Under the pieces are notes generated by a model. The model was not told the origin of the DNA, did no database searches, and saw only the letters and a program-made list of their open reading frames with translations. Below, piece by piece: positions 20,084 through 39,372 of a DNA stretch of 64,000 nucleotides. The DNA lies in contig CBDETK010000013.1 of assembly GCA_965242865.1 (NCBI GenBank), positions 3,840,001-3,904,000 on the forward strand. Reading direction: 5' to 3'. The DNA comes from Candidatus Latescibacterota bacterium. Lineage in GTDB: Bacteria; Latescibacterota; UBA2968; UBA8231. Every line of letters begins with the position of its first letter. Positions within the stretch are counted from its first letter, which is position 1. The position numbers and the translations under genes were made by a program.

Positions 20084-20092
20084 AAGGAGCGC

Positions 20093-22229: not shown

Positions 22230-22382
22230 TGGAGAGTTCCTTGGGGTTTTAGGTAGTTGCCGAATCCAGCCCAATCTATCCCGCCGCTAGTCTCGCTTCA
22301 AGGGCGGCCATTGTGCGGCGATCCAAGCGGGCGGATATTGAAGGCGCGTACTATCGTTCAGATTGCAGCAAAGGAGATATAA

Positions 22383-22847: not shown

Positions 22848-22849
22848 AA

Positions 22850-23381
22850 ATGCGCGAGTTCACTTGTGATGCGCTCCTCGAATGGTACGCCTTGCTCCAA
22901 CAAAATGTGCGCGACCTCGGCGACGAACAGTTTGAATCTTTCACCCCGACTGAGTGCGACGAGTTACGTGCGGATCTGCTTGAGGAGATACGCAAGGACT
23001 ACGCCTTCAAGCTCCTTACGCTCTTGGAGGCAGGTATCCGAGAGGATTTTCTCGCATCTCTACAACAAAAAAAGCGCGACAGAGTAAGCAGAGCGTATCG
23101 CGAGTTGTGTGAAGAATATCGCCGCGAGACGCGTCTAAGTTGGCAAGCAGGCTACTCAGGCGTGTAGGCGGGTTCCCATTGAGCGGATCTTCGACACGTT
23201 ACGAGACTGTTTCAGCGACATTGACGAGGCGTTTCGGAGGGTTTGCTCGGTGACCAAGGGATACTTCGGGTTTCGGAATTGGTATGCACACGGTCGGCTT
23301 CGCACAATGCCGGTTGTTCCAGATCCGGAGGACGTATATGAGGCGTACGAGCAGTTTCAGGAGAAGGTGCTGAATCGATAA
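22850..23381 (+). pseudogene. Frameshifted HEPN-like (RxxxxH) protein
   Basis: ORF 22850-23167 continues in the +1 frame (shift between 23139 and 23165) as ...RRVPIERIFD...FRNWYAHGR...VLNR, stop at 23379-23381. Confidence 0.7.
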
Positions 23382-23474
23382 CTGTCATCAACTCCGTGGC
23401 GAGATGGTGATACAGCAGTCCTAAATAACTTGAACGCATGGAATGTTCATCGGCCCTGTTTTTTGCATAGAGGT

Positions 23475-23501
23475 GTCATTCCCACGAACGCGGGAATCCA
23501 G
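23475..23501 (+). repeat. REP/dRS3-like palindrome GTCATTCCC-N-GGGAATCCAG, copy 1
   Basis: GTCATTCCCACGAACGCGGGAATCCAG; inverted copy at 63470-63496. Confidence 0.7.
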
Positions 23502-23634
23502 TCTTGGGCTCGCCGATGCTCACGCGGCTCTCGACAATGCCGTTGCCAGAGCCTATGCTTGGAAAATAGACATTTCCGAAGATGAAACGTTGAAGAAACT
23601 ACTAGCGATGAACGAAGTAGAAAACATCGCTTAA
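23500..23634 (+). pseudogene. C-terminal remnant resembling MmeI-like type II restriction-modification enzymes
   Basis: LADAHAALDNAVARAYAW...ETLKKLLAMN resembles the usual C-terminus of these methyltransferases; rest of gene absent. Confidence 0.55.
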
Positions 23635-23718
23635 TTGCAAAATTTGAAAAATCTATGCTACTATCACTAGTAGCGTCAATCGTTTTGAGATACTTTGGGA
23701 ATCATCTAATAGGCCGCT

Positions 23719-24616
23719 ATGCAGACCAACGACCCAATCCCATTTGCAGCATTCGCCCGATTCGAGCGGCTCACCGCCGAGAAGCCGCTGCTGTACTGCG
23801 ATCCCCCCGCGTGGGCGGCTGCCAGTCACGCCATCGTCGTGGGCAGCACCGTGCATTATCTGTGGGCCAAAAAGGGAGGGGACAATAGCTGGGTACACAT
23901 GCACAGCTCTGCGCCAGTCGCCGATCCTATAGCGGTTACGCACGACCCGCGCAATCCCATACTCCGGCCTTCCGCCGATGATTTCGACAATCAAGGAGTG
24001 GAATACCCATTCCCGTTCTGGAATCCCGCCGACCAGTGCTACTACGCATATTATCTAGGCAGCCAAGGCAAGGGCAAGCCCCGCCGCAAACAGACCGGCC
24101 TACTAGTCAGTAACGGCGATTTAGGGGCGTGGACGCGGATTGGGAATGAACCGATAGTTGCAGTCGGCGGCGCACACGAGCAACACGGCTCTTCCCATCC
24201 ATCCGTGGCCGTGTCGGGCAATGTCATTCACATGGTTTATACCGGCGAGTCGCCAGCCCCTCCTGAACGGCGCGATATTCTCTACAACGTGCCGACCATC
24301 TGTCACGCCACCGCACCAACCAGCGATCCGGCGAAAGTCACCAAGAATCCCGCCAATCCCGTATTCAGCGGATCGGGGCAGGCATGGGACCGCTATGGCG
24401 TACGCGAAGCCGAAATCCTCAAAGGACCGAGCTACTTCCACCTGTTCTACGGAGGGTACGACGGCGAAGTCTGGGCTATTGGACATGTCCGTACGCGCGA
24501 CTTCCACACCTTCGAACCCAACCCACACAACCCAATCTTCACGCCTGCGACCAATGCCGATGCTTGGGATTGCGATGGCCTCCTAACCCCTCAGGTGTTC
24601 GCAATGAATGGGACCT
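23719..24616 (+). pseudogene. Five-bladed beta-propeller glycoside-hydrolase-like gene, 5' part (interrupted)
   Basis: Repeated blades (HDPRNPILRP..FD..GVEYP; NPANPVF..G..WD..GVREA; NPHNPIF.P...WD..GLLTPQV); stops mid-blade at the insertion; 3' part at 35963-36051. Confidence 0.8.
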
Positions 24617-25845
24617 GATTCCTGTGCGCCGAGAAGCCGATGTGGGCGAGAGCGGCCAGCAAGACGAGGCACGCCAGACCGTAGCGAATGGTGGCGCTCC
24701 GACCCGCCGCCTCGATGGACAGGAACCGGTCTAGCAGCAACACCGCCGTCACCAGCAGCGGCACATACACCGGCAGTAGGTAGCGGCTGTCGATGACCTG
24801 TTTAACCGCGAGGGGTACGACAGCGACGATGAATCCGAGGTAGGCTAGGGCGAACACCCCGAATGGGAGCACCGGCCCCAACCCCAAGCGCGGCGACGCA
24901 GTCCGCTCCGTTGCCCCTCCATCCGTCCCGCCAAGCCGAGACCCAACGACGACCGCTCCCGCTGCCATCACCAGCCCGGCCGCAGTCCACAGGAGAAAAC
25001 TAAACCCGTCCGGCGCATTCGGGGGAATCGCCCATTCCCGGAATACATCTACCACTTGGCTCAGTGACTCGGACAGGGACTGCTCCGACCCGCCTTTCCT
25101 CGCGGTCAGGCTCCCGGAGACCGCCCAGTTGCGCGTCATCACCCCCGCGAGGGGCAAGGATGAGATGGCCCCAAATACAACGGCGTCTTTCAACCGGGCG
25201 GCCAGCGGCGGTTTGCGCCGCACCAGCAACAGCAGGACGCCGATGCCGATCAGCACCACGCCCGGGTAGCGGGTCAGCGCGACCAGCGCGGTGCAAACCG
25301 CCGCCAGCAGGGGCGTCCTCCCGCCGCGATGCAGGAAGGACGCCCATTGGATCAAGGCGAGGAGCGTAAACAGGGCGAAGAGGGGATCGTTCCTGACCTC
25401 TGACGCCCAATGGCTCAAGGGCAGGGAGGCTGCGATAGTCGCGGTGGCGGCTAGTGCCAGTCCCCGCGACCGGAGATGCGAGCGCAGATAGAGGCCGGCT
25501 GCCAAGATGGTCAGCCCGAAGGCGGTGGCGTTGACCCACCGACTCGCCGCTACCGGATCGAGGCCAACCCACCCCAAGGCCGCTAGCAGCAAGGGGAACA
25601 AGGGCGGGGAAAACACCATTGGGTTGCCCCAGAAATCCTGCCAGCCCTCTCCTGCGAGGAAGTTCATGGCCGTGGACAGAAAAATTACAGAGTCGTACAT
25701 GACCTTCGCGCCGTAGGTGGCGGTGCGGACGGGTGCCCAGCCCGGCGAGGACGACGATGAGCAGCGCGAAGGGGTCGCGCCGCAACCGGGCGATCCGCTT
25801 GAATGCAGAGCACTTCACTGTGGAGAGGGTAAATCGCTTCGCCAT
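24617..25845 (-). pseudogene. GT-C-fold (ArnT/PMT-like) membrane glycosyltransferase paralog GT1, 5' half
   Basis: Starts MAKRFTLS; 11-bp deletion (gcccacatcct vs paralogs) near 25731 shifts the frame; ends at ...GFSAHRN at the left junction. Confidence 0.8.
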
Positions 25846-25848
25846 AGT

Positions 25849-27840
25849 TCAATCCCCGGCCGGCGAAAACGCCGCGTCCCAGAGGGTGCGGTTCCCGTTG
25901 GCAATCCATTGGCCGACTCGGATGCGGCCGATGGGGTAGCCGGGCAGTGGGGCGGTCGCGATACACTGGTCGCCGACCCGGAGACCGCGCCGGTCGAAAT
26001 AGAAGCCGAGGTTGTCGTAGTCGTACCGCCTGCGGGGCTCTGACAGGTCTGCCGGGCGTGCTAGGTCTTCCGGGTCGGCGGGGGTGACGTGCAAAACGAA
26101 CTTCGCCTGCACATCGGCGCGGGTGCAGGGCTCTTTGAAGTAGATCAGCTTGCGCCCCTTGCGGTACACATCCCAGCCGGCGCGAACCACCGGATCGCCA
26201 GCCTGTTGGATGAGTTGCTCCGCGTAGCGTTGTTTGCAGGCGCGATGCCGGTCCGCATCAAAGGGTTCGGCCGTCGTTACGCGGAACACAACGCCATCGG
26301 ATAGCTCGGCCACGGTTTCCACGCCGGGCAGGCAGCGGATGTCCAAGGCGTCGTAGTTGTACCAAGACTTTTCAGCCAGGAGCCAAACGATATGTGCGCC
26401 GTCGCCCTTGGTCTTCCGCATTATGCGCGGTATCAACTGGTGAATCTCGTCTGAGAGATACTGGTGCTTTCTCGGGGCGCGGGTCCGATCCCACAACCAA
26501 GTAATTGTGGGGTTGTTGCTGAAAACCCTGCCATCGTTGAGGTGGGTCCTGATGTAACTTAGGGTATCAGAAGGGTCTCGGTAGGAGCGATCGAACATCC
26601 AGCTTTTGAGCCCGACCCTCCATGCTTTGGCGGTAATGCGGAGATGCTGGTGCGCCGAGTAGCCGCCGTGGACGAGGACGGCCAGCAGGACGAGGGACCC
26701 CAGCCCGTAGCGGACAGCCGACGCGACGCCTGCGATGGACAGGAACCGGTCCAGCAAGAACACCGCTGTCAACAACAACGGTATATGCACCGGCAGCAGG
26801 TAGCGGCTGTTGATTTCCTGCTCAACCATGAAGGGCACGATGGCGACCATGAATCCGAGGTAAGCTAGGGCGAATACCCCGAATGGGAGTGCCGGTCCCA
26901 GCCGATCCTTCCCGCTTAGGCCGAAGCCGCGACCTGACGCAACGATGACCGCGGCGCCGGCCAGCCCGACTGCGGCGACCGCCAACCACAGCAGGTACGC
27001 CACCCCATCCGGCGCGTTCGGAGGGACGACCCACTCGCCGAACACCTCGGCGATCTGGTGCAGCCCAGCGGATAGAGACTGCCCGGACGCGCCCTGCCTC
27101 CCGGTCAGAGTCCCGGAGACCGCCCAGTTGTGCGTCAGTGTTCCCCCGAGGGGAAAAGATGAGATGGAGCCAAATGCGATGGCGTCTTTCAACCGGGCGG
27201 CCAGCCGCGGAGCGCGCCGCACCAGCAGCAGCAGGACGCCGGTGCCGATCAGGGCCACGCCCGGATAGCGGGTCAGCGCGGCCAGCGCGGTAAAAACCGC
27301 ACCTAACAGCAGGGGCGTCCGCCCGCCGCGATGCAGGAAGGATGCCAACTGGATCAAGGCGAGGAGCGTAAACAGAGCGAAGAGGGAGTCGGTCATGAGG
27401 CTCGACGCGAGCTCGCTCAAGGGCAGGGAAGCCGCGATGGTCGCGGTGGCGATCAGCACCAACTCCCGCGACCGGAGATTCGTGTGCAGCCAGCACCCCG
27501 CAACGAGGATGGTCAGCCCGAAGGCGGTGGCGTTGACCCACCGACCTGCCTCCAGCGGATCAATGCCCACCCAACCGCCAGCCGCCAGCAGCAGGGGGAA
27601 CAACGGCGGCCATACTACCGACGGTGAGCCCATGGAATCCCGCCAGCCCTCGCCGGCGAGGAAGTTCATGGCCGTGGATATAAAAAATGAGGAGGCGTGT
27701 GGATCGACCGCCACGCCGTAGGTGGCGGTGCGGGCGAGGATGTACGCGGTGCCCAGTCCGGCGAGGACGACGATGAGCAGCGCGAAGGGGTCGCACCCGA
27801 ACCGGGCGATCCGCGGCCTTTTTTTATCTATAGTACTCAA
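25849..27840 (-). CDS. GT-C-fold membrane glycosyltransferase paralog GT2
   Basis: Many TM helices; WPPLFPLLLA, TDSLF, LTRYPG, SRYLLP; soluble C-terminal domain (FVLHVTPADP...DNLGF...RIRVGQW). Confidence 0.8.
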   Translation of the reverse strand: MSTIDKKRPRIARFGCDPFALLIVVLAGLGTAYILARTATYGVAVDPHASSFFISTAMNFLAGEGWRDSMGSPSVVWPPLFPLLLAAGGWVGIDPLEAGRWVNATAFGLTILVAGCWLHTNLRSRELVLIATATIAASLPLSELASSLMTDSLFALFTLLALIQLASFLHRGGRTPLLLGAVFTALAALTRYPGVALIGTGVLLLLVRRAPRLAARLKDAIAFGSISSFPLGGTLTHNWAVSGTLTGRQGASGQSLSAGLHQIAEVFGEWVVPPNAPDGVAYLLWLAVAAVGLAGAAVIVASGRGFGLSGKDRLGPALPFGVFALAYLGFMVAIVPFMVEQEINSRYLLPVHIPLLLTAVFLLDRFLSIAGVASAVRYGLGSLVLLAVLVHGGYSAHQHLRITAKAWRVGLKSWMFDRSYRDPSDTLSYIRTHLNDGRVFSNNPTITWLWDRTRAPRKHQYLSDEIHQLIPRIMRKTKGDGAHIVWLLAEKSWYNYDALDIRCLPGVETVAELSDGVVFRVTTAEPFDADRHRACKQRYAEQLIQQAGDPVVRAGWDVYRKGRKLIYFKEPCTRADVQAKFVLHVTPADPEDLARPADLSEPRRRYDYDNLGFYFDRRGLRVGDQCIATAPLPGYPIGRIRVGQWIANGNRTLWDAAFSPAGD

Positions 27841-27883
27841 TCAAGATACGATATGGCCGGGCCGATCAATCCCAAGGAATAGC

Positions 27884-28102
27884 TCATTCGCTTAGTTCGG
27901 GATTGAGTACAGAAAGCCCTGCTAAGGTGGCGGTCTGACAGAAGGGGCTATCAGCGCAAACAAAATAATCGAGCGGTGTATGACTATTGACGTCAAGAGC
28001 AACGGCAAGCTGAAGAGCATCTAAGGTCCGCAAATTTTCGGTGAAAGCATAACGGGCGAGAAGTCGAACAGCTTGGTTCTGGTATGTGCGCTTATCGTCC
28101 AT
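27884..28102 (-). pseudogene. Truncated VapC/PIN toxin (C-terminal half only)
   Basis: LRTLDALQLAVAL...FVCAD...GLSVLNP is a PIN C-terminus; the N-terminal acidic motif (D-T-S type) is missing. Confidence 0.7.
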
Positions 28103-28400
28103 CTCGTTCTTCACTCACGATCTTTGCCATAGCCCCCTTAAACTTAGCTGTGATTCTGAGCACTTCCTCCATTGAGGTCGGAGCCTCTGTGTCATCGGCA
28201 CTTGCTCGATTCCATTCCAATCCCCACAAGTCGTCCTCGTGAAGGTCATCCAACAGCTTCTGAGACCGGTCCGGTTTTTGGAGTTGCCTTTCAATCCTTC
28301 GTTTGACTTCCGTCAGCGTGTCAGGAGGCAGGTTGCAGAGAGTGTCAATGAGGTCTTTGAGGGGCAGATTAACTTCGACGTTTTTGTCAATGCTAGTCAT
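28092..28400 (-). CDS. Putative antitoxin
   Basis: 102 aa, GGAGG RBS, ends IVSEERDGR, overlaps the PIN gene. Confidence 0.6.
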   Translation of the reverse strand: MTSIDKNVEVNLPLKDLIDTLCNLPPDTLTEVKRRIERQLQKPDRSQKLLDDLHEDDLWGLEWNRASADDTEAPTSMEEVLRITAKFKGAMAKIVSEERDGR

Positions 28401-28515
28401 TTTATTCCTCCAAGGAGAGGGTCGTTTTCATGGGATGCTCCTGTTATATAGGTCAAATGATAATATACTTGATGCGGTGATGTAAAGAACGGCTCGGCGA
28501 GTAGGATGTCCTGTA

Positions 28516-30580
28516 TCACCGGCTCGGCGAAAACGCTGCGTCCCAGAGGGTGCGGTTCTCTTTGGCAATCCACTGGCCGACCCGGATGCGGTCAATGAGA
28601 TAGTTGGGCAGATGCGCGATCGCGATACACTGGTCGCCGCGCCGAATGCCGCGCCAGTTGAAATGAAAGCCGAGGTTGTCAAAGCCGTACCGCTGGCGGG
28701 AGCGCGAAAGGCCGCCCGGGTCGGCCGGGGTGACGTGCAAAACGAACTTCGCCTGTACGTCGTCGGAAGCACACGGCTGTTTGAGGTACGTCAGCCTGTG
28801 GCCGTTGCGGTACACGTCCCAGCCGGAGCGGACGACCCGCTCGCCGACCTGGGCGAGGAGTCGCTCCACGTAGCGTTGTTTGCAGGTGCGATGCCGGTCT
28901 GCGTCGAACGGTTCGGTCGCCGCGGTCGTTAGGCGGAACACCACCCCGTCGGATAGCTCGGCCACGGGTTCCACGCCGGGCAGGCAGCGGAGGTCCAAGG
29001 CGTCGTAGGCGTAAGAAGGCTTTTGATGCTGGAGCCAAACGATATGTGAGTTGGTGCTATCGGTTCTCCGCATTATGTGCGGCATCACCCTGTGAATCCT
29101 GCCTTGTGGGAGAGGCTGGTGCTTTCCCAAGGCGGCGGTCCGGTCCCAAAACCAAGTAAGGAAGACGTTGTTGGTATAAACCCTGCCCTCATTGAGGTTG
29201 GTTCTGATGTACTTCAGGGTCTCGGAAGGTTCCCAATAGGGGCTATTGTACATCCAGTCTTTGACCCCGGCTCTCCATGCTTGGTGGGTAATGCGGAGAT
29301 TTCTATGCACCGAGAAGCCGGTGTGGGCGAGGGCACCTAGCAAGACGAGGGACACCAGCCTCCCCTTGGCGATGGCCATCCGACCCGTAGTCTCGATGGA
29401 CAGGAACCGATCCAGCAGCAACGCCACGACCACCAGCAGCGGCACATACACCGGCAGCAGATAGCGGCTGTCGATTTTCTGAGCAACCGTGAAGGGCACG
29501 ACAGCGACCAGGAATACGGGGTAGGCTACGGCGAATACCCCGAATGGGATAGCCGGCTCCAAACGGGAATACGCCGGTGCGGCCTCTAGGTCCTGCCTGC
29601 GACCAGCGCGGTGCATTCGGGTGGCGCGTAGGACGACCGTCGCGCCGGCCAGCCCGACTCCCCCGACCGCCAGCCACAGCAGATACGCCAATCCATCCGG
29701 CGCGTTCCGCGGGACGACCCACGCACCGAACACCTCAACGATCTGGCTCAGCCCAGCGGATAGGGACTGCCCCGAAGAAAAAATTGCTCTTTTCCCTGTT
29801 GCATCGGTTAGGTTCCCGGTGACCGCCCAGTTGTGCGCCAATACTCCCAGCAAGGGCAGGGACGAGATCGCGCCAAAGACGACGGTATGCTTCAGCCGGG
29901 CGAGCGGGAGCAGCAGGAGGACGCCGACGCCGATCAGGGCCCCGCCCGGCCAGCGAGTCACCGCGGCCAGTGCGGTGAAAACCGCCGCCCACAGCCAGGG
30001 CGTCCGCCCGCCGCGATGCAGGAAGGCCGCCCATTGGATCAAGGCGAGGAGCGTAAACAGAATGAAGAGGGGATCGGTCCTGAAGTTCGCTGCGAGATCG
30101 CTCAAGGGCAGGGAAGCTGCAATGGTCGCGGTGGCGGCCAACCCCAACAGCCGCGACCGGAGATGCGAGTGCAGCCAGCACCCCGCGACGAGGGTGGTCA
30201 GCCCGAAGGCCGTGGCGTTGATCCACCGACCGGCCGCAAACGGCTCGATGCCAAGCCAACCGAGGGCCGCCAGCAGTAGGGGGAACAAGGGCGGCCAAAG
30301 CACCAGCGGTTTGCCCCGGAGATCCTGCCAACCCTCGCCGGCGAGGAAGTTTATGGCCGTGGAGAGAAGAAGGGAGGCGTCCCAGCCGACCGCGGCGCCG
30401 TAGGTGGCGGTGCGGACGAGGATGTGGGCGGTGCCCAGCCCGGCGAGGACGACGATGAGCAGCGCGAAGGGGTCGCACCAGAACCGGGCGATCCACTCGA
30501 ATGCGGAGCATTTTGCCGCAAAGAGGGTAAATCTCCCCCCCCCCCCCCCCAATCCTCATAAATTTATTAAAAACAATCAC
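28516..30580 (-). CDS. GT-C-fold glycosyltransferase paralog GT3, out of frame at a G16 tract (phase OFF?)
   Basis: GTG ATT GTT...ATG AGG ATT + G16 + AGA TTT; G15 or G18 would be in frame; body 28516-30552 intact. Confidence 0.78.
30535..30550 (-). repeat. Poly-G tract (G16) at the 5' end of GT3
   Basis: C16 on + strand. Confidence 0.9.
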
Positions 30581-30583
30581 TTA
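30559..30583. promoter_or_regulatory. 25-bp AT-rich pseudo-palindrome, site 1
   Basis: Minus strand TAAGTGATTG-TTTTT-AATAAATTTA. Confidence 0.6.
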
Positions 30584-30743
30584 TGACTTTATTCTTAGTA
30601 TAATGGTCAGGGAGCGCCACGGCCTTTTTTTGCCCATAGTACTCAACTCAATCAAGATACCCTCATTCCTGTTATATAGGTCAAATGATAATATGCTTGA
30701 TGCGGCGATGTAAAGAACGGCTCGGCGAGTAGGATGTCCTGTA

Positions 30744-32873
30744 TCACCGACCCGGCGAAAACTCTGCGTCCCAGACGGTGCGGTTCCCATTGGCAATCCA
30801 CTGGCCGACCCGGATGCGGCCGATGGCGTAGGCGGGCAGCTCAACGACCGCGATACACTGGTCAGCCACCCGCATGCGGTGCCGCCGGCGGAGCCAGTCG
30901 AAATGGAAGCCGAGGCTGTCAAAGCCGTACCGCCGGCGGGCGATGGGCAAGACGCTCGGGTCGGCCGGGGTGACGTGCAAAATGAACTTCGCCTGCACAT
31001 CGGCGGGGGCACACGGCTTTTTGAAGTAGGTCAGCTTGCGCCCGTTGCGGTACACGTCCCAACCGGCGCGAACCACCCGCTCGCCCGCCTGTGCGAGGAG
31101 TTGCGCCACGTAGTGTTCTTCGGCGCGTTGTTTCTGGACGCGATGCCGGTCCGCATCAAACGGTTCGGTCGCCGCCGTTTCGGTCGTTACGCGGAATACC
31201 ACGCCATCGGACAACTTGACCACCACCTCCACGCCGGGCAGCAAGCGGAGGTCGAGGTCGTTGTAGTCAAAATACACAGTTCGATAGCTGTTTTTGAGCC
31301 AGACGATATAGACTTTGTCTTCGCCTCGTTTGCTCCACTTTCCGGCCTGCCGCGTCCAATAGCGTAGCTCAAAGGGAAGAACCCGATGTGTTCTAAAAGC
31401 GGCGGTCCGGTCAGCAAACCAGAGGAGGAAATGGTCGTTGGTGTACATCTTGCTATCGCTAAGGTGGTCCCGGATGTAATTCAGGGTCGCGGAATGTTGC
31501 CGATAGGCGACGTTGAAAGACCCGTCGTTGAGGTATCCGGCCAATGATTGGGCGGTAAGACGGAGGTTTTTTTGCGCCGAGAAGCCGATGTGGGCGAGGA
31601 CCCCCAGCAAGACGAGGGACACCAGACCCCACTTGGCCACGGCCACCCGCCCCACAACTTCAATGGACAGGAATCGGTCTAACAGTAACACCGCCGCCAA
31701 CAGCAGCGGCATATACACCGGCAGCAGGTAACGGTCGGGTATCTTGAGGGGGATCACGAGTGGCACGATGGCGACGATGAATAGGAGATAGGCTAAGGCG
31801 AACGTTCCGAATGGGAGTGCCGGCCCCAACCCTAAAGACAGCACCCCCTTTCTCCAGCCAGCCACAACGACAGCGCAGATTGCCACAACAACCAGCCAGA
31901 TCGTCGCCCACAGAAGAGAACCGAACCAGTCCGGGGTGCCCAACCCGGTCGCTGTCCATAGGAGATAACCAAACCCGTCCAGCGCGTCCTGGGGCATCGC
32001 CCATTCCCGGAAGACCTCCCCCACTTGGCTCAGCGCATCGGACAGGGACTGCCCCGACCCTTTTCCCGGCCCGGTCAGGTGCCCATAGAGGGTCCCAGAA
32101 ATAACCCAGTTGTGCGTCATCACCCCCGCGAGGGGTACGGACGAGATGGCCCCAAATACGACAGTGTGCTTCAATCGGGCGGCCAGCGACGGGGTGCGAC
32201 GGACCAACAGCATGAGGACGCCGAAGCCGATCAGCACCACGCCCGGGTAGCGGGTCAGCGCGGCCAGTGCGGTAAAAACCGCGCCCCACAGCAGGGGCGT
32301 CCGCTCGCCGCGCTGCAGGAAGGCCGCTAACTGGATCAAGGCGAGGAGCGTCAACAGGACGAAGAGGGAGTCGGTCATGAGGCGCGACGCGAGCTCGCTC
32401 AAGGGCAGGGCAACCGCGATGGTTGCGCCGGCGGCCACTGCCAGCCATCGCGCCCGGAGATTCGAGCGCAGATAGCCCCCCGCGGCGAGGATGGTCAGCC
32501 CAAAGGCGGTGGCGTTGATCCACCGACCCGCGGCCAGCGGCTCAATGCCAACCCAACCGCCAGCCGCCAGCAGCAGAGGGAACAAAGGTGCCCATTCCAC
32601 CAGCGGGCGGCCCCAGGCATCCCGCCAGCCCTCTCCTGCGAGGAAGTTCAGCGCCGTAGATAGGAAAACTAGGGAGTCCATTTCTACCGACGGGCCGTAG
32701 GGGGCGGTGCGGATGAGAATGTGGGCGGTGCCTAGCCCAGCGAGGACGACGATGAGCAGCGCGAAGGGATCGCGCCCGAACCGGGCGATCCACTCGAATG
32801 CGGAGCATTTTGCCGCAGAGAGGGTAAATCTCCCTCCCTCCCTAATTCTCATAAATTTGTTAAAAATAATCAC
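30744..32873 (-). CDS. GT-C-fold glycosyltransferase paralog GT4 (in frame; interrupted G tract AGGGAGGGAGGG)
   Basis: 709-aa ORF with the same motifs as the paralogs. Confidence 0.8.
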   Translation of the reverse strand: MIIFNKFMRIREGGRFTLSAAKCSAFEWIARFGRDPFALLIVVLAGLGTAHILIRTAPYGPSVEMDSLVFLSTALNFLAGEGWRDAWGRPLVEWAPLFPLLLAAGGWVGIEPLAAGRWINATAFGLTILAAGGYLRSNLRARWLAVAAGATIAVALPLSELASRLMTDSLFVLLTLLALIQLAAFLQRGERTPLLWGAVFTALAALTRYPGVVLIGFGVLMLLVRRTPSLAARLKHTVVFGAISSVPLAGVMTHNWVISGTLYGHLTGPGKGSGQSLSDALSQVGEVFREWAMPQDALDGFGYLLWTATGLGTPDWFGSLLWATIWLVVVAICAVVVAGWRKGVLSLGLGPALPFGTFALAYLLFIVAIVPLVIPLKIPDRYLLPVYMPLLLAAVLLLDRFLSIEVVGRVAVAKWGLVSLVLLGVLAHIGFSAQKNLRLTAQSLAGYLNDGSFNVAYRQHSATLNYIRDHLSDSKMYTNDHFLLWFADRTAAFRTHRVLPFELRYWTRQAGKWSKRGEDKVYIVWLKNSYRTVYFDYNDLDLRLLPGVEVVVKLSDGVVFRVTTETAATEPFDADRHRVQKQRAEEHYVAQLLAQAGERVVRAGWDVYRNGRKLTYFKKPCAPADVQAKFILHVTPADPSVLPIARRRYGFDSLGFHFDWLRRRHRMRVADQCIAVVELPAYAIGRIRVGQWIANGNRTVWDAEFSPGR

Positions 32874-32876
32874 TTA
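32852..32876. promoter_or_regulatory. 25-bp AT-rich pseudo-palindrome, site 2
   Basis: Minus strand TAAGTGATTA-TTTTT-AACAAATTTA. Confidence 0.6.
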
Positions 32877-33001
32877 TGTCGTCTTCTTAGTGTAGTAGTC
32901 AAGTGCGCCACGGCCTTTTTTACCCATAGTACTCAATTGAGGTCGCTCATGGGCCTAGACGAGGAGGTCGGCGCGTCCCTTCAGCGGTGGGGCGGCGGCC
33001 A

Positions 33002-35050
33002 TCACCGGCTCGGCGAAAACTCCGCGTCCCAGAGGGTGCGGTTCTCGTTGGCAATCCACTGGCCGACCCGGATGCGGTCGATGGCATAGGCGGGCAGATG
33101 CGCGATCGCGATACACTGGTCGCCGCGCCGAATGCCGCGCCAGTTGAAATGAAAGCCGAGGTTGTCAAAGCCGTACCGCTGGCGGGAGCGCGAAAGGCCG
33201 CCCGGGTCGGCCGGGGTGACGTGCAAAACGAACTTGGCCTGCGTGTCGGCGGAAGCACACGGCTGTTTGAGGTACGTCAGCTTGCGTCCGTTGCGGTACA
33301 CGTCCCAGTCGGAGCGGACGACCCGCTCGCCGACCTGTGCGAGGAGTTGGTCCACGTAGGATTGTTTGCAGGCGCGATGCCTTTCCGCGTCGAACGGTTC
33401 GGTCGCCGCGGTCGTTAGGCGGAACACCACCCCGTCGGATAGCTCGGCCACGGGTTCCACGCCGGGCAGGCAGCGGAGGTCCAAGGCGTCGTAGGCGTAA
33501 GAAGGCTTTTGATGCTGGAGCCAAACGATATATGCGCCATCGCCCTCGGTCCTCCGCATTATGTGCGGTATCAACTGGTGAATCTTGCCCGGGAGATATT
33601 GGTGCTTTCCCGGGGGGGCGGTCCGATCCCAAAACCAAGTAAGTTGGTTGTGTTGGCTGTAAATCCTGCTGTCGCTATCGCTAAGGTGGAGCCTGATATA
33701 ATTCAGGGCCTCGGAAGATTCATAGTCGGAGCCATTGAGCGTCCAGCTTTTAAACCCTTCTCTCCATGCTTGGTAGGTAATACGGAGGTTTCTATGCACC
33801 GAGAAGCCGCCGTGGGCGAGGGCGGCGAGCAAGACGAGGGACGCCAGACCGCAGGCGGCGCGGCCCTGTCCCGCCGCCTTAATGGACAGGAACCGGTCCA
33901 GCAAGAACGCGGCCACCAACAGCAGCGGCACATATACCGGCAGTAGGTAGCGGCTGTCGATGCCCTGCCTAACCGTGAAAGGCACGACAGCGACCATGAA
34001 ACTGAGATAGGCTAGGGCGAACCCCGCGAATGGGAACACCGGCCCCAAACGGAAATAGGCCGGCGCGGCCTTTGGGGCCGGCTGGCGACCGTGCAGGACG
34101 ACCGCGGCGCCGGCTAGCCCGACTGCGGCGACCGCCAACCACAGCAGGTACGCCACCCCATCCGGCGCGTTCGGGGGGGCGACCCACTCGCCGAACACCT
34201 CGGCGATCTGGTGCAGCCCAGCGGATAGAGACTGCCCGGACGCGCCCCGCCTCCCGGTCAGAGTCCCGGAGACCGCCCAGTTGCGCGTCATCACCCCCGC
34301 GAGGGGCAAGGATGCGATGGTGCTAAATACAACGGCGTCTTTCAACCGGATGACCAGCGGCGAGGTGCGCCGCACCAGCAACAGCAGGACGCCGGTGCCG
34401 ATCAGGACCACGCCCGGCCAACGGGTCACCGCGGTCAGCCCGGTAAAAACCGCACCTAACAGCAGGGGTGTCTGCCCGCCGCGATGCAGGAAGGATGCCA
34501 ATTGGACCAAGGCGAGGAGAGTCAACAGGACAAGGAGGGGCTCGGTCATGAGGCGTGACGCGAACTCGCTCAAGGGCAGGGAGGCCGCGATGGTCGCGGT
34601 GGCGGCCAGTGTCAGCCACCGCGACCGGAGATTTGAGCGCAGCCAACCGCCCGAGGCGAGGATGGTCAGCCCGAAGGCGGTGGCGTTGATCCATCGACTC
34701 GCCGCCAGCGGCTCAATGCCGACCCAACCGAAGGCCGCCAGCAGCAGGACGAACAAGGGCGGCCATCCCACCAACGGGCGGCCCGTGAAATCCTGCAAGC
34801 CCTCTCCCGCGAGGACATTTATGGTCGTGGACAGGAAAACCATGAAATCCCCGCGGACTTCTAGGCCGTAGGTGGCAGTGCGGACGAGGATGTGGGCGGT
34901 GCCCAGCCCGGCGAGGACGACGATGAGCAGCGCGGAGGGGTCGCACCGAAACCGGGCGATCTGCTTGAATGCGGAGCATTTTGCCGCAAAGAGGGTAAAT
35001 CTCCCCCCCCCCCCCCCCCCCATTCTCATAAATTTAGTAAAAACAATCAC
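33002..35050 (-). CDS. GT-C-fold glycosyltransferase paralog GT5 (in frame through G19; phase ON?)
   Basis: MIVFTKFMRMGGGGGGRFTL...; 682-aa ORF. Confidence 0.8.
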   Translation of the reverse strand: MIVFTKFMRMGGGGGGRFTLFAAKCSAFKQIARFRCDPSALLIVVLAGLGTAHILVRTATYGLEVRGDFMVFLSTTINVLAGEGLQDFTGRPLVGWPPLFVLLLAAFGWVGIEPLAASRWINATAFGLTILASGGWLRSNLRSRWLTLAATATIAASLPLSEFASRLMTEPLLVLLTLLALVQLASFLHRGGQTPLLLGAVFTGLTAVTRWPGVVLIGTGVLLLLVRRTSPLVIRLKDAVVFSTIASLPLAGVMTRNWAVSGTLTGRRGASGQSLSAGLHQIAEVFGEWVAPPNAPDGVAYLLWLAVAAVGLAGAAVVLHGRQPAPKAAPAYFRLGPVFPFAGFALAYLSFMVAVVPFTVRQGIDSRYLLPVYVPLLLVAAFLLDRFLSIKAAGQGRAACGLASLVLLAALAHGGFSVHRNLRITYQAWREGFKSWTLNGSDYESSEALNYIRLHLSDSDSRIYSQHNQLTWFWDRTAPPGKHQYLPGKIHQLIPHIMRRTEGDGAYIVWLQHQKPSYAYDALDLRCLPGVEPVAELSDGVVFRLTTAATEPFDAERHRACKQSYVDQLLAQVGERVVRSDWDVYRNGRKLTYLKQPCASADTQAKFVLHVTPADPGGLSRSRQRYGFDNLGFHFNWRGIRRGDQCIAIAHLPAYAIDRIRVGQWIANENRTLWDAEFSPSR
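35003..35021 (-). repeat. Poly-G tract (G19) at the 5' end of GT5
   Basis: C19 on + strand. Confidence 0.9.
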
Positions 35051-35053
35051 TTA
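35029..35053. promoter_or_regulatory. 25-bp AT-rich pseudo-palindrome, site 3
   Basis: Minus strand TAAGTGATTG-TTTTT-ACTAAATTTA. Confidence 0.6.
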
Positions 35054-35174
35054 CGTTGTTGTCCTTAGTATAGTGGTCAGGGTCAGGGTGCGCCACGGCC
35101 TTTTTTTGCTCATAGTACTTAACTCAATCAATGCGGTGATGTAAAGAACGGCCCGGCGAGTAGGATGTCCTGTA

Positions 35175-35962
35175 TCACCGGCCCGGCGAAAACGCCGCGT
35201 CCCAGAGGGTGCGGTTCCCGTTGGCAATCCATTGGCCGACTCGGATGCGGCCGATGGGGTAGCCGGGCAGTGGGGCGGTCGCGATACACTGGTCGCCGAC
35301 CCGGAGACCGCGCCGGTCGAAATAGAAGCCGAGGTTGTCGTAGTCGTACCGCCTGCGGGGCTCTGACAGGTCTGCCGGGCGTGCTAGGTCTTCCGGGTCG
35401 GCGGGGGTGACGTGCAAAACGAACTTCGCCTGCACATCGGCGCGGGTGCAGGGCTCTTTGAAGTAGATCAGCTTGCGCCCCTTGCGGTACACATCCCAGC
35501 CGGCGCGAACCACCGGATCGCCAGCCTGTTGGATGAGTTGCTCCGCGTAGCGTTGTTTGCAGGCGCGATGCCGGTCCGCATCAAAGGGTTCGGCCGTCGT
35601 TACGCGGAACACAACGCCATCGGATAGCTCGGCCACGGTTTCCACGCCGGGCAGGCAGCGGATGTCCAAGGCGTCGTAGGCGTAAAAAGCCCTTTCATTC
35701 TGGAGCCAAACGATATGAGCATCGTCGGGCCATCGCATTATGAGCGGCATCAACTTGCGAAACCACGGGAGAAACTTGTGCCTTCCCAAGGCGGCGGTCC
35801 GATCCCGATCCCACCACCAAGTAAGGTAAGCGTTGTTGCTATAAATTCTGCCCTCGCGAAGGTTGGTTCTGATGTAATTCAGGGTCTCGGAAGGTTCCCA
35901 GTAGGAGCCATTGATCGTCAAGTATTCAAACCCGGCTCTCCATGCTTGGCGGGTAATGCGGA
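35175..35962 (-). pseudogene. GT paralog 3' half (GT6), the missing continuation of GT1
   Basis: Begins (L)RITRQAWRAG exactly where GT1 ends. Confidence 0.8.
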
Positions 35963-36051
35963 ATTACATGATTTATGCCGGTCTCAGAGGATCGGGATGG
36001 AATCGCGTGTCAGCAGTCGGGACGGGCTTAGCCGTGGCAAGCCCGATATAG
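35963..36051 (+). pseudogene. 3' end of the interrupted beta-propeller glycosidase gene
   Basis: Reads YYMIYAGLRGSGWNRVSAVGTGLAVASPI* in frame when joined to 24616; matches earlier blades (YYAYYLG, IHMVYTG, FHLFYGG). Confidence 0.8.
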
Positions 36052-36102
36052 GGGCAACTCTTGTGATTGTCCTCTTGCGACTGCCGCTATAGAGCACCCC
36101 TT

Positions 36103-37485
36103 TCACCCACGCTCATCGGCCCGCTCAATGACCCGCATACTCTTCCAGCGGCCCGTGCGAAAGCGCAGGTAAAAAGCCACGCCCATGACGCATACATAGG
36201 CGCAGGCAAAGCTCCATATCAGGTATAGCCCCCCGTCGAAATAGGTCAGGGCCACAAAAGACGGCACGACCATGAGCACCCAAGCCAGCGCGATCGACAT
36301 CCACATGACGAAGCGGGTGTCGCCCGCGCCCTTCAGGGTCGCCGTAAAGACCATATAGGCTGCGTCGGAGACGCCGTACAGGGCCACGAAGCGCAGCAAG
36401 ACCACGGCGATCTGATGCGCGGTCGCAAAGTGGGCGTCCCGATCCTCGCCAAAGGGCGCCAAGAAAAACTCCGGCACCACGACGTAGCCCACGGACATCG
36501 TCCCCATGTACAGCATGGCCAAGTGCAAGCCCGTCCATGTGCAGTACTCGGCGGCTTCGGGCTGATCGCGCCCCAAGCACTGGCCTACCATCGTCGAGAC
36601 GGCGATACTACAGCCAATGAGCGGCATAAAGGCGAGACTGTTGATGTGAAAGGCCAAATTCGTCGCGGCCAGCGGAATCGGCCCCAAGCGGCCCACGATG
36701 AACAAAAACAACGTAAAGGCCATGATGTCGAGCATGAAGTTGACGCCATTGGGGCCGCCAAAGCGCAATAGGCGCAGCAGCAGTTTGAGATCGGGCTTCC
36801 AGCCGCGCAAAGTGGCGTATTCGCTGCGATAGCGCGGCCCCAAGAACAGCAGCGCGAAGGACAGGGCCGAGACCACTAAGCCGATGTTGGTAGCCCACGC
36901 CGCCCCGACGATCCCCAACTCCGGCAGCCCCCAGTGCCCGAAGATCAAGCCGTAATCGCAGACGATGTTGACGCTGATGGCCACGGCGTTGACCGCCAGC
37001 ACCACCCACGTCTGCCCCCGTCCACTGAAAAAGCACGAGAAGGCCGTGGATAAGACCTGCGGCCCCGTGCCGTAGCAAAGGATGCGGAAGTACTGGGTTT
37101 CGGCGGCGCGGATGGCTGGGTCGTGGCCGATGAACGCGAAGAGTTCGCCGGCCAAGGCGGCCGGCAGCAAGGCCAAGAGGCCGCTGAACACAGCTACGTA
37201 CGCCCCTTGCCACACGGCCGGCCCCACGCGCGTCAGCCGCCGCGCCCCCATGTATTGGGCGACAAACGTGTTGGCGTATTGGGCCGTGCCCATGAAGAGG
37301 CTGATGAAGGTGAAGTTGGCCATGCCCGCCGGCAGCGCGGCCGCCAACGCCTCGGTGGAATACCAAGAGAGAAAGACCCGGTCGACAAAGTGCTGGATGC
37401 TCCAGCTAGCCGTGCTCAGAATCAGCGGCAGGGCGATCCGCAAAAACTCCCGGTATCCGCCTGCGGCCCCCCACCGCCTAGCCAT
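36103..37485 (-). CDS. MATE family efflux transporter / flippase
   Basis: ALPLILS...FVDRVFL, VAQYMGA, LKGAGDT, RF..GRWK; many TM helices. Confidence 0.9.
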   Translation of the reverse strand: MARRWGAAGGYREFLRIALPLILSTASWSIQHFVDRVFLSWYSTEALAAALPAGMANFTFISLFMGTAQYANTFVAQYMGARRLTRVGPAVWQGAYVAVFSGLLALLPAALAGELFAFIGHDPAIRAAETQYFRILCYGTGPQVLSTAFSCFFSGRGQTWVVLAVNAVAISVNIVCDYGLIFGHWGLPELGIVGAAWATNIGLVVSALSFALLFLGPRYRSEYATLRGWKPDLKLLLRLLRFGGPNGVNFMLDIMAFTLFLFIVGRLGPIPLAATNLAFHINSLAFMPLIGCSIAVSTMVGQCLGRDQPEAAEYCTWTGLHLAMLYMGTMSVGYVVVPEFFLAPFGEDRDAHFATAHQIAVVLLRFVALYGVSDAAYMVFTATLKGAGDTRFVMWMSIALAWVLMVVPSFVALTYFDGGLYLIWSFACAYVCVMGVAFYLRFRTGRWKSMRVIERADERG

Positions 37486-37496
37486 GCGGCCCACGC

Positions 37497-38516: not shown

Positions 38517-38684
38517 GGGAAATCCTTTGTTGATCAGCCTTTATGCGAAGCGAAATGGGCAAGAAAAGAAAAAAGGGGCGTACGCGCCAGACCGCTTTGA
38601 GGCGGGTCGCGGGGCAGTATTAGAGGCTATGCGCCCAATGCAAAGCCCTTGCGTCCTATACGTCATTGGCGCATACTACGATGT

Positions 38685-39289: not shown

Positions 39290-39372
39290 CTTTGTAGATG
39301 CAAGGGCGTTCATCGGCAAAACGGTCAATTCGAGCTGTCCGTAACACGCAAAGCGATATAAAAAAGAAATCC

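What the first reader, a model, noticed from the sequence alone, without database searches (positions are those of the whole stretch)
24617..35962. An 11.3-kb circularly permuted glycosyltransferase array integrated bluntly into a glycosidase gene
Seen: the beta-propeller gene stops at ...AAT GGG ACC T|(24616). Joining to 35963 gives ACC TAT TAC ATG ATT TAT GCC GGT..., i.e. TYYMIYAG...SPI*, completing the last blade (328 aa). The insert's own ends also join perfectly: GT1 ends ...CAC AGG AAT C| and GT6 begins |TC CGC ATT ACC, giving HRNLRIT as in intact GT3 and GT5. The block therefore reads as a closed circle of five GT genes plus a TA remnant, opened inside one gene. Neither junction can slide by one base, so there is no microhomology and no target-site duplication, and no integrase or transposase occurs in the window. 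Inference: a circle excised from a tandem array (for example by recombination between identical paralog segments) reintegrated by an illegitimate or uncharacterised route, moving whole surface-modification arrays.
Basis: partly seen in the sequence, partly recalled or inferred. Interest (0 to 1): 0.92.

Follow-up and report, generated by a model that had tools for sequence, protein, structure and literature searches.

The report
Glycosyltransferase gene block moved into another gene
In one strain of a sponge-associated bacterium, an 11.3-kb block of surface-sugar enzyme genes has moved about 370 kb along the chromosome and landed inside another gene with base-perfect joints and no mobile-element machinery, a rare clean natural example of illegitimate recombination.

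Summary
Window 24617-35962 (11,346 bp) interrupts a GH130-like beta-propeller gene. The two flanks are directly adjacent in 9 of 9 same-genus orthologous loci. A conspecific strain in an independent metagenome run (X1) carries the exact empty site.

It is not an assembly artefact. Contigs in runs X13 and X14 run unbranched and mismatch-free through both junctions.

The two truncated end genes are halves of one GT-C glycosyltransferase gene. Joined, they align as a single stretch to an intact paralog at C13:3.49 Mb.

The donor locus is new here. The block's antitoxin/PIN remnant and an adjacent 80-nt piece are single-locus in this genome, but in relatives they lie just downstream of a GlnD-like gene. 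In this genome that interval holds only one hybrid GT gene.

The event is therefore an intrachromosomal translocation needing one homologous exchange between paralogs and one conservative, homology-free reciprocal exchange. There is no target duplication and no terminal repeats. No recombinase lies nearby, and no Ku was found.

It looks like a one-off, not a mobile system. The enzyme is inferred only; a type II topoisomerase is my leading guess.

The parts
23719..24616 (+). 5' part (codons 1-299 plus the first base of codon 300) of a GH130-like five-bladed beta-propeller gene, now ended by a stop codon created at the junction
   Evidence: ORF. Orthologs are 88-92% identical in 13 same-genus genomes. 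The intact ortholog L002:1501-2493 passes the Pfam Glyco_hydro_130 cut-off (33.9 bits against 26), while the truncated window copy does not (16.3 bits).
24617..25845 (-). GT1N: N-terminal (membrane) part of the broken GT-C gene 'g', ending after codon HRN plus one base. It carries an additional 11-bp deletion near codon 45 that shifts the frame.
   Evidence: covers aa 46-418 of GT3. One search shows the 11-bp gap relative to the paralog at C13:3492026-3494059. It is 96.75% identical over 1189 nt to that paralog.
25849..27840 (-). GT2, an intact 663-aa GT-C paralog. Its last ~400 nt are 100% identical to the tail of the right-end fragment GT6C.
27884..28090 (-). Remnant (C-terminal ~60 aa) of a PIN-domain (VapC-like) toxin gene; the 5' part is deleted
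   Evidence: Sequence. The intact 156-aa homolog in G001 (L012:1346-1816) hits Pfam PIN at 1.8e-10.
28092..28400 (-). Intact 102-aa antitoxin-like ORF. It is the marker that identifies the donor locus.
   Evidence: It is single-copy in G000. Homologs lie downstream of the GlnD-like gene in relatives.
28417..28498 (-). An ~80-nt piece that lies 0.3-4.3 kb from the GlnD-like gene in 12 of 12 relatives with a match. In G000 it is found only inside the block (three copies, downstream of GT stops).
28516..30552 (-). GT3, an intact 678-aa GT-C paralog with a C16 tract (30535-30550) at its 5' end
   Evidence: The AlphaFold model has pLDDT 91.5. Foldseek best hits are ArnT 5f15/5ezm, and the other listed hits at E<=0.001 carry GT-C names too.
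30744..32873 (-). GT4, an intact 709-aa GT-C paralog
33002..35050 (-). GT5, an intact 682-aa GT-C paralog with a C19 tract (35003-35021) at its 5' end. Its tail is 100% identical over 300 nt to the tail of the 3.49-Mb paralog.
35175..35962 (-). GT6C: C-terminal (soluble-domain) part of the broken gene 'g', starting with the last two bases of the codon after HRN; open to its stop
   Evidence: 261 aa without stops; aa 419-678 of GT3. The first 300 nt are 99-100% identical to the 3.49-Mb paralog.
35963..36051 (+). 3' part of the propeller gene (last two bases of codon 300, 28 codons, stop)
   Evidence: It directly follows the 5' part in 9 of 9 relatives and in the X1 contig.

Best explanation
The block is a strain-specific intrachromosomal translocation.

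Origin (inferred from synteny). A tandem array of GT-C glycosyltransferase paralogs with an embedded toxin-antitoxin remnant originally lay about 370 kb away. It sat between a GlnD-like gene with a small downstream ORF and a DUF2330 gene (C13:3.49 Mb).

Two exchanges moved 11,346 bp of it into the GH130-like propeller gene:

1. Homologous recombination between near-identical segments of two paralogs. This left a single hybrid GT gene at the donor locus. The step is inferred from the mosaic pattern.
2. One reciprocal, conservative, homology-free exchange between a point in GT gene 'g' (at the boundary of its membrane and soluble domains) and a point in the propeller gene. The product is shown: no base was lost, gained or duplicated at either partner.

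The order of the two steps is not known.
- Route A: a circle is excised by step 1 and then integrated by step 2.
- Route B: step 2 first inverts the 370-kb interval, and step 1 between the now inverted paralogs then re-inverts it.

Both routes give exactly this product.

A perfectly conservative joint without homology suggests a breakage-and-reunion enzyme. I favour a type II topoisomerase (gyrase-type illegitimate recombination), at roughly 30% for that specific enzyme. End joining or transposition fit less well.

Consequences: the propeller gene and GT gene 'g' are dead, and four GT genes are relocated intact.
For: Real, not assembled:
- In X13 and X14 a 1203-nt contig covers 23444-24646 with 0 mismatches.
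- Contigs of 757 and 2311 nt start at 35928 and cross 35962/35963 with 35 nt on the block side, also with 0 mismatches.
- X14 mean contig depths are 199.9 and 212.7, against 184.6 and 179.7 for the flanks.
- No 24616->35963 joint is listed for X13, X14 or X17.

Ancestral empty site:
- X1 record 5 (1188 nt) joins 24616 to 35963 exactly, with 13 mismatches in 1188 nt.
- 9 of 9 same-genus loci are uninterrupted.

One gene split:
- The in-script join aligns to the paralog as a single stretch across the break.

Donor locus:
- The antitoxin region is single-copy in G000.
- An antitoxin homolog lies within 10 kb of the GlnD-like ortholog in 6 of 7 genomes with a match. The 80-nt piece lies within 0.3-4.3 kb in 12 of 12 (positions).
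- The order GlnD-like gene, antitoxin, homolog of the G000 right flank is collinear in 3 of 3 loci examined (G010, G007, G023). The 80-nt piece matched in one of them, G010.
- G000's own interval (C13:3491462-3494134) holds only a 141-aa ORF and one GT gene.

Homologous-recombination footprint:
- The singleton's first ~1.6 kb is 98-100% identical to gene 'g'.
- Its next 300 nt are 100% identical to the tail of GT5, the neighbour of 'g' in the circular order.
- The tail of 'g' is 100% identical to the tail of GT2.

No mobile-element hallmarks:
- The block ends show no direct or inverted similarity beyond shuffles. For the direct comparison 300 of 300 shuffles reach the observed score, and for the inverted comparison 273 of 300 do.
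- There is no target duplication.
- The nearest transposase or integrase match is more than 140 kb away.
- Ku was not found in the 93.6%-complete genome.

Against: - No circle-junction joint (35962->24617) is among the joints listed, where three more were not shown, so a free circle is unproven.
- The left-junction contig has only 30 nt on the block side. It is the most a k=31 unitig can carry, because the next 31-mer would be shared with the 3.49-Mb paralog (my reasoning).
- X13 and X14 belong to one study and may include the data the genome was assembled from. They exclude an assembler error but are not independent biological replicates.
- X17 holds identical block and flank pieces, but no listed piece crosses a junction.
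- No non-permuted copy of this array was found in the 31 genomes of the genus. The donor arrangement is reconstructed, not observed.
- The near-identical tracts could come from gene conversion after the move rather than from the excision crossover.
- Nothing in the sequence identifies the enzyme, and I did not test a gyrase-site preference.
- X1 has a contig whose match begins exactly at 24617 and is preceded by foreign DNA (table 7). This could mean the break point is a recurrent, specific site.
Confidence: 0.8

Rival explanations
1. Assembly artefact: the assembler spliced a collapsed or circular array contig into the propeller gene, so no such molecule exists.
For: The genome is a metagenome-type assembly with one 5.6-Mb contig plus 12 small ones. 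The block consists of paralogs sharing 100%-identical tracts, a classic trap for assemblers.
Against: Both chimeric junctions stand in k-mer contigs built independently of the assembly, in runs X13 and X14, with 0 mismatches. Contig depths equal those of the flanks. No branch to the empty-site form appears at 24616. Blunt joins without any shared k-mer cannot arise in a graph assembler unless reads carry them. No alternative contig in the assembly holds the flanks or the block.
Confidence: 0.03
2. A dedicated, so far unknown mobile mechanism: the GT array segment is an element with defined ends, cut at a specific bond at the boundary between the membrane and soluble domains of a GT gene. A conservative recombinase encoded elsewhere inserts it into varied targets.
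For: Run X1 has one contig whose match to the window begins exactly at 24617 and is preceded by 126 nt found nowhere in G000 or in 31 genus genomes (table 7). The joints are perfectly conservative, as with recombinases. The genome holds three tyrosine recombinases.
Against: Among the 35 paralog copies tabulated (including the split pair), only this one is split at aa 418/419. No other array in G000 or G046 shows the same ends. The two parental sites share no motif (14 of 60 in register). No recombinase lies within 140 kb. The X1 contig's matched length and identity are unknown, and it may be a paralog with a swapped C-terminal domain. Scans of public collections with that 30-mer and with both junction 30-mers found nothing.
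Confidence: 0.07
3. Capture of a linear DNA fragment by end joining at a double-strand break in the propeller gene. The fragment could come from another cell or from a broken circle.
For: Blunt joints without homology are what non-homologous end joining can give. Yeast integrations of a circularly permuted 17-kb segment were attributed to it (PMC3053389, passages read).
Against: Ku was not found in the genome (completeness 93.6%, so absence is not proven). Four DNA ends would all have to be joined without losing or adding a single base. The yeast cases showed 2-3 base microhomology at four of six insertions and possibly base mutations in some cases. A linear fragment of exactly one period would need a circular or perfectly periodic precursor anyway. 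The block's 98-100%-identical tracts with a resident gene and its synteny markers argue for a native origin.
Confidence: 0.06

Closest known systems
[quoted passage not shown]
   Same: A reciprocal exchange between two duplexes without homology, independent of homologous recombination. In Ikeda's experiments gyrase was involved in the transfer of a resistance cassette from a plasmid into lambda DNA (passages read). That a whole plasmid goes in, opened at an arbitrary point, is my recollection.
   Different: That system was shown in cell extracts and with quinolones. Here we have a natural chromosomal product in an uncultured symbiont, and no evidence links gyrase to these two sites. I could not read the original 1982 structure paper because it is not held. 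So whether those junctions are equally base-perfect is recalled, not checked.
Reintegration of extrachromosomal circular DNA in yeast (17-kb Zygosaccharomyces bailii 'region B' in wine strains, PMC3053389)
   Same: Integrated copies show a circular permutation of gene order, taken as the signature of a circular intermediate. No repeated elements occur at the breakpoints (passages read).
   Different: That case is eukaryotic, multi-copy, and has an autonomous replication sequence. Its junctions have 2-3 base microhomology at four of six insertions and possibly base mutations in some cases, and were attributed to NHEJ. Here there is a single copy, zero microhomology, no indel, and no Ku.
Circle-based bacterial mobile units (integron cassettes, IS26 translocatable units, IS minicircles)
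   Same: A non-replicating circle is inserted conservatively without a target duplication.
   Different: Those need a dedicated recombinase and a specific site on the circle (attC, an IS copy, an IR-IR junction). None is present here. This description of those systems is from my own knowledge.
Ordinary IS insertion in the same gene in a sister species (G001)
   Same: The same propeller gene is interrupted.
   Different: In G001 the insert is 1187 bp, encodes a DDE transposase (DDE_Tnp_1_5, 7.3e-39), and its flanks overlap by 7 bp of the reference gene, i.e. a target duplication. It serves as an internal contrast that shows what transposition looks like at this locus.

Membership tests
Transposon / insertion sequence | Transposase gene in the element | tested here: not met
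   Matches to DDE_Tnp_1 (16), rve (1, below cut-off) and Y1_Tnp (1) in the genome all lie outside C13:3840001-3904000. The ORFs of the block are GT paralogs and a TA remnant.
Transposon / insertion sequence | Terminal inverted repeats and a target-site duplication | tested here: not met
   The local alignment of the first and last 100 nt scores no better than shuffles. For the direct comparison 300 of 300 shuffles reach the observed score, and for the inverted comparison 273 of 300 do. The flanks are adjacent bases in 9 of 9 orthologs.
Integrase-mediated integrative element (attL/attR) | Tyrosine or serine recombinase in or beside the element, and an identical core sequence at both junctions | tested here: not met
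   There are three Phage_integrase matches in the genome, none in the window, and no Resolvase match. No base is shared at the junctions ('both = 0').
Circle reintegration by illegitimate recombination | Circular permutation: the two ends of the insert are adjacent in the parental sequence | tested here: met
   The break positions are neighbouring bases in the paralog, and a single alignment runs across the join.
Circle reintegration by illegitimate recombination | Physical circle or circle-junction molecules | tested here: inconclusive
   No 35962->24617 joint is among those listed, where three joints were not shown. A near-identical sequence exists anyway in the 3.49-Mb paralog, so k-mer contigs could hardly tell the two apart.
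Topoisomerase II (gyrase) mediated illegitimate recombination | Conservative reciprocal exchange without homology | tested here: met
Topoisomerase II (gyrase) mediated illegitimate recombination | Gyrase cleavage at both parental sites | not testable with these tools
   This needs cleavage mapping on the two cloned sites.
GT-C fold glycosyltransferases (ArnT / PMT / STT3-like) | Multi-helix membrane domain with the GT-C fold | tested here: met
   The model of GT3 built from 57 sequences has pLDDT 91.5 and pTM 0.90. Foldseek against the PDB gave 35 matches at E<=0.001. All those listed carry the names of enzymes or complexes that I recognise as GT-C (ArnT 5f15 at 1.9e-7, OST/STT3, Pmt4, ALG9, AftA, PglB).
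GT-C fold glycosyltransferases (ArnT / PMT / STT3-like) | Conserved acidic residue in the first extracytoplasmic loop | tested here: inconclusive
   D58 is conserved at 90% or more in both alignments, and E73 at 90% or more among the 25 paralogs. Both follow the first long helix of the model. Their equivalence to the catalytic Asp of ArnT/PMT was not checked by superposition.
Pfam PMT_2 / PMT | Score above the curated cut-off | tested here: not met
   The window copies score 17-20 bits against cut-offs of 22.7 and 26.1. 8 of 25 paralogs hit PMT_2 and 5 of 25 hit PMT at E<=0.01. Of 57 family members, 15 hit PMT_2 and 6 hit PMT at E<=0.001.
Glycoside hydrolase family 130 (beta-mannoside phosphorylase/hydrolase propeller) | Pfam Glyco_hydro_130 above the cut-off | tested here: met
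   It is met by the intact ortholog L002:1501-2493 (33.9 bits against 26; the matched stretch 270-313 spans the break point). It is not met by the truncated window copy (16.3 bits). No activity or catalytic residues were tested.
VapBC-type toxin-antitoxin pair | PIN-domain toxin preceded by a small antitoxin gene | tested here: not met
   The G001 homolog has both genes intact (PIN 1.8e-10). The window has the antitoxin ORF but only the last ~60 codons of the toxin, so it is a remnant.

The most novel reading that the evidence does not exclude
The break in the GT gene is not random. The bond at the boundary between the membrane and soluble domains would be a preferred cleavage site of a conservative strand-transferase (a topoisomerase hot spot or an unrecognised recombinase). 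That enzyme would shuffle and relocate segments of these paralog arrays. Together with poly-G phase variation and frequent gene conversion, this would make the family a programmed surface-glycan diversification system in a sponge symbiont. The contig in run X1 that also breaks exactly at 24617 but continues into other DNA would be a second product of the same site.
Probability: 0.07. Interest if true: 0.85.

Novelty: new variant of a known kind. Interest (0 to 1): 0.45.

Why it matters
Illegitimate recombination in bacteria is mostly known from selection experiments and extracts. Natural products are rarely resolved with both parental sites, the empty site and the donor locus all in hand.

Here all four can be read at single-base resolution. 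They show a strictly conservative, homology-free reciprocal exchange in a genome where no Ku was found and no mobile-element enzyme lies nearby. That constrains the mechanism to breakage-reunion enzymes. It also gives two defined sequences on which topoisomerase cleavage can be tested directly.

The case also shows how tandem paralog arrays can seed new chromosomal locations without transposons, at the price of killing the target gene.

It is one event, so its general weight is modest.

Tried and rejected
- No non-permuted donor array was found. The whole block searched against 31 genus genomes gave only paralog-level matches of 65-87%. The family is strongly expanded only in G000 and G046.
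- No recurrent break was found. A tblastn search with GT3 gave 43 matches, which I tabulated as 35 copies plus small fragments. The only one broken at aa 418/419 is the window pair. The other fragments start at aa 436 or 562, or cover 218-342.
- The X1 loose-end 30-mer gave only 12-nt chance hits in G000. It gave 0 of 31 genus genomes at up to 3 mismatches and 0 hits in metagenome contigs and genome contigs.
- The left-junction 30-mer in metagenome contigs and the right-junction 30-mer in genome contigs each gave 0 hits. These scans say nothing either way, because the window's own records may be left out.
- tRNA and Rfam: no tRNA lies in or beside the block, and there is no Rfam match in 20000-40000 at E<=0.1. 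A tRNA-type attachment site is therefore rejected.
- Integron-type insertion was rejected on reading the junctions: I saw no GTT/AAC core at either joint (the motif is recalled).
- The first structure model, built from the 25 paralogs alone, was poor (pLDDT 52.5) and was not searched.
- phmmer of GT3 against PDB sequences gave nothing meaningful.
- NCBIfam gave only a far-below-threshold hit, LA_3751/3752 putative GT at 23-25 bits against a cut-off of 200.
- Literature: the searches found no report of a natural bacterial chromosomal insertion of this kind. This holds only for the held open-access library and those terms. Supplements were not consulted.
- The 1982 PNAS paper on the structure of gyrase-made recombinants is not held.
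- A Xer/dif-like reading of the target site was considered from memory and dropped as untestable here.

Full report
WHAT IS THERE

The window is G000:C13:3840001-3904000 of a 6.0-Mb assembly with one 5.6-Mb contig and 12 small ones. The runs that hold it are sponge or sponge-metagenome runs.

On the + strand a 299-codon ORF (23719-24618) ends with a stop codon made at position 24616/24617. Its remaining two bases of codon 300, 28 further codons and the stop follow at 35963-36051.

Between them lie 11,346 bp. Read on the minus strand, they carry in order:
- a C-terminal GT fragment (GT6C, 35962-35175);
- three full genes: GT5, GT4 and GT3;
- an ~80-nt piece;
- a 102-aa antitoxin-like ORF and the last ~60 codons of a PIN toxin;
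- GT2;
- an N-terminal GT fragment (GT1N, 25845-24617).

IS THE OBSERVATION RIGHT?

Yes, for both partners.

For the propeller gene, the last base of the left flank and the first base of the right flank are adjacent in 9 of 9 same-genus loci fetched. The intact 330-aa ortholog reads through the break as ...NGTYYMIYAG....

For the GT gene, the two break positions are neighbouring bases in an intact paralog of the same genome (C13:3493283/3493284). The two fragments, joined inside a script, align to that paralog as a single stretch. Identity is 98% in the 120 nt before the break and 100% in the 240 nt after it.

Neither joint can slide. Read laying gives 'both = 0', and the two parental sites agree at 14 of 60 positions in register.

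IS IT REAL DNA?

I laid Logan contigs of four runs on 21000-39000.

- In X13 and X14 (one study, two samples) a 1203-nt contig covers 23444-24646 without a mismatch.
- In the same runs, contigs of 757 nt (X13) and 2311 nt (X14) start at 35928 and run across 35962/35963 without a mismatch.
- X14 mean contig depths are 199.9 and 212.7, against 184.6 and 179.7 for the flanking contigs.

The left joint has 30, one short of the rule. I still read it as support for two reasons. A k=31 unitig has to stop exactly there, because the next 31-mer lies wholly in sequence shared with the 3.49-Mb paralog. And the unitig does not branch at 24616, as it would if an empty-site form were present. This reasoning is mine, not the tool's.

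No 24616->35963 joint is listed for X13, X14 or X17. X17 (another study and host) holds flank and block pieces with 0 mismatches, but no listed piece crosses a joint.

X13/X14 may include the data the genome was built from. They rule out an assembler-made chimera but are not independent biology.

THE EMPTY SITE

Run X1 (another study) has a 1188-nt contig that matches 24145-24616 and then continues at 35963-36678. It skips exactly 11,346 bases and has 13 mismatches in all. Other species of the genus are 83-96% identical over these flanks, mostly 87-93%. X1's organism is therefore a close, conspecific-level relative. It also shares G000's local arrangement downstream, with no PhyH-like gene between the propeller and MatE genes, unlike L002.

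The insertion is therefore a recent strain-level polymorphism, and the uninterrupted gene is the ancestral state.

WHERE THE BLOCK CAME FROM

No other place in G000 matches the block closely, with one exception. That is a singleton GT gene at C13:3492026-3494059 (L011:8027-10060), which lies between a GlnD-like gene plus a 141-aa ORF and a DUF2330 gene.

That gene is a mosaic:
- Its first ~1.6 kb is 98-100% identical to the broken gene 'g' across the break.
- Its next 300 nt are 100% identical to the tail of GT5.
- The tail of 'g' itself is 100% identical over 400 nt to the tail of GT2.

The decisive clue is the non-GT cargo.
- The antitoxin region is single-copy in G000.
- Its homologs lie within 10 kb of the GlnD-like ortholog in 6 of 7 genus genomes with a match. 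The seventh is on a separate small contig.
- The 80-nt piece lies 0.3-4.3 kb from that gene in 12 of 12 (positions compared).
- In three loci examined in full (G010, G007, G023), the order is GlnD-like gene, antitoxin, homolog of G000's right flank. The order is collinear in 3 of 3, and the 80-nt piece matched in one of them, G010.

So the block's cargo is native to the interval that in G000 now holds only the hybrid singleton, about 370 kb from the insertion. Relative to that locus the block is inverted: the GlnD-like gene is on the + strand, while the antitoxin in the block is on the minus strand.

HOW IT MOST LIKELY HAPPENED

Two exchanges are needed.

1. Homologous recombination between paralogs. 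This is inferred, from the 100%-identical tracts and the hybrid left behind.
2. A reciprocal exchange between a point in 'g' and a point in the propeller gene. Its product is shown: no base lost, gained or duplicated at either partner, and no shared base.

The order of the steps is open.
- Route B needs no free circle. The illegitimate exchange first inverts the 370-kb interval. Recombination between the now inverted array halves then restores it.

Written out, route B yields exactly the observed product: a hybrid singleton at the donor locus and a permuted, inverted block in the target. Route B always inverts the block, while route A does so half the time, so the orientation favours B only about two to one. 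I cannot separate the two routes with the data at hand.

WHICH ENZYME?

The hallmarks of known elements are absent:
- there is no transposase, integrase or resolvase match in the window;
- there are no terminal repeats;
- there is no target duplication;
- there is no tRNA or Rfam feature.

Ku was not found in the genome (completeness 93.6%). End joining would also have to process four ends without a single-base change.

A perfectly conservative joint is what covalent breakage-reunion enzymes leave. Gyrase cleavage complexes have been linked to illegitimate recombination, with subunit exchange between two complexes followed by re-ligation as one proposed mechanism. Rapid interface swapping has now been measured (PMC11164529, passages read).

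With staggered cuts, each strand of the recombinant is still a clean join, so replication gives base-perfect joints. This last step follows from the known 4-base stagger of type II enzymes and is my inference.

I put about 30% on a type II topoisomerase. The remainder is spread over other conservative enzymes acting on pseudo-sites.

WHAT THE GENES ARE

The GT label was weak by sequence:
- window copies score below the Pfam PMT and PMT_2 cut-offs;
- 8 of 25 paralogs hit PMT_2 and 5 of 25 hit PMT at E<=0.01;
- of 57 family members, 15 hit PMT_2 and 6 hit PMT at E<=0.001.

A profile of the 25 paralogs finds 9423 representative proteins at E<=0.001, so the family is large and unnamed.

A model of GT3 from 57 sequences is confident (pLDDT 91.5). 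Foldseek returns 35 PDB matches at E<=0.001, and all those listed carry names I recognise as GT-C enzymes, with ArnT first. The Atlas neighbours also carry PMT_2 or PMT. D58 is nearly invariant.

I file the genes as GT-C-fold putative glycosyltransferases. Their substrate is unknown.

The break in 'g' falls at the end of the long helix 391-428 region, at the start of the ~260-aa C-terminal domain.

The interrupted gene is GH130-like. The intact ortholog passes the Pfam cut-off with a match that spans the break.

COMPARISON AND NOVELTY

The closest precedents are the gyrase-dependent plasmid-lambda recombinants and the circularly permuted re-integrations of a 17-kb circle in wine yeast (PMC3053389, passages read). 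The yeast junctions showed 2-3 base microhomology at four of six insertions and were ascribed to NHEJ.

A useful internal contrast comes from the sister species G001. There the same propeller gene carries a 1187-bp DDE-transposase IS with a 7-bp overlap of the flanks.

My four literature searches found no natural bacterial chromosomal case of this kind. They cover only the held open-access library.

I rate this a new variant of a known kind: a well-resolved natural instance, not a new system.

OPEN POINT

X1 also holds one contig whose match starts exactly at 24617 and is preceded by 126 nt that lie on nothing in the laid stretch. The printed 30 nt of it match nothing in G000 and nothing in 31 genus genomes. 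Read in the GT frame, that DNA does not continue like a GT.

It could be a paralog with another C-terminal domain, or a second product of the same break point. It is the main support for the bolder reading.

VERDICT

- An artefact is excluded as far as k-mer contigs can exclude it.
- The mechanism is conservative illegitimate recombination plus homologous recombination, with the enzyme inferred.
- Interest is moderate: a single event, but unusually cleanly resolved.

Noticed in passing
window 30535-30550 and 35003-35021; genome-wide in G000: Long poly-G tracts (C16 and C19 on the + strand) sit at the 5' ends of GT3 and GT5. In all, 10 of the 35 GT paralogs have a G/C run of 8 or more within -200 to +150 of their start, out of 184 such runs in the genome. 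Run X14 shows a 2-base shorter form at 30535 (table 4). This looks like slipped-strand phase variation of a surface-glycan enzyme family, but homopolymer sequencing error is not excluded.
   Followed up: partly
G000 C13: 0.05, 1.25-1.28, 1.71, 3.49, 3.86 and 5.28 Mb, plus singletons: About 35 paralogs of one ~680-aa GT-C family lie in tandem arrays in a 6-Mb genome. Within the genus the family is similarly expanded only in G046 (69 DNA matches). Members exchange 100%-identical tracts of 300-400 nt. A profile search finds 9423 representative proteins, many with the ~110-aa C-terminal module repeated up to 10 times.
   Followed up: partly
window ~23405-23507: A ~100-nt intergenic repeat upstream of the propeller gene has at least 57 further copies in C13 at 80-97% identity. 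It explains the depth spike in bin 23404-24004 and the loose ends at 23506 and 23762. It looks like a REP/MITE-type element and was not characterised.
   Followed up: no
window 22275-23718: A 1.4-kb stretch of lower G+C (0.51-0.53) with two small ORFs of no known family lies between the sulfatase and propeller genes. It is absent from L002, where those genes are 114 nt apart. Run X1 shares it.
   Followed up: no
L002:2503-3462 versus window ~36044-36102: Four of the nine relatives' loci (L002, L003, L006, L007) have about 1 kb between the propeller and MatE genes; in L002 it is a 319-aa PhyH-like dioxygenase gene. G000 and the X1 strain lack it.
   Followed up: no
L033 (G001:C1:2747000-2752000) 1734-2920: In sister species G001 the same propeller gene is interrupted by a 1187-bp IS. 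The IS encodes a 336-aa DDE transposase, and its flanks overlap by 7 bp of the reference gene.
   Followed up: yes
run X1, place 24617 (table 7): One contig matches the window from exactly 24617 onward and is preceded by 126 nt not found in the laid stretch. The printed 30 nt of it are not in G000, not in 31 genus genomes, and not in two public collections.
   Followed up: partly
G-handles of the genus: The interval between the GlnD-like and DUF2330 genes is highly variable in the genus. It ranges from about 1.3 kb in G046 and 2.7 kb in G000 to about 20 kb in G001. The DUF2330 gene was found in only 9 of 31 genomes at E<=1e-50.
   Followed up: partly
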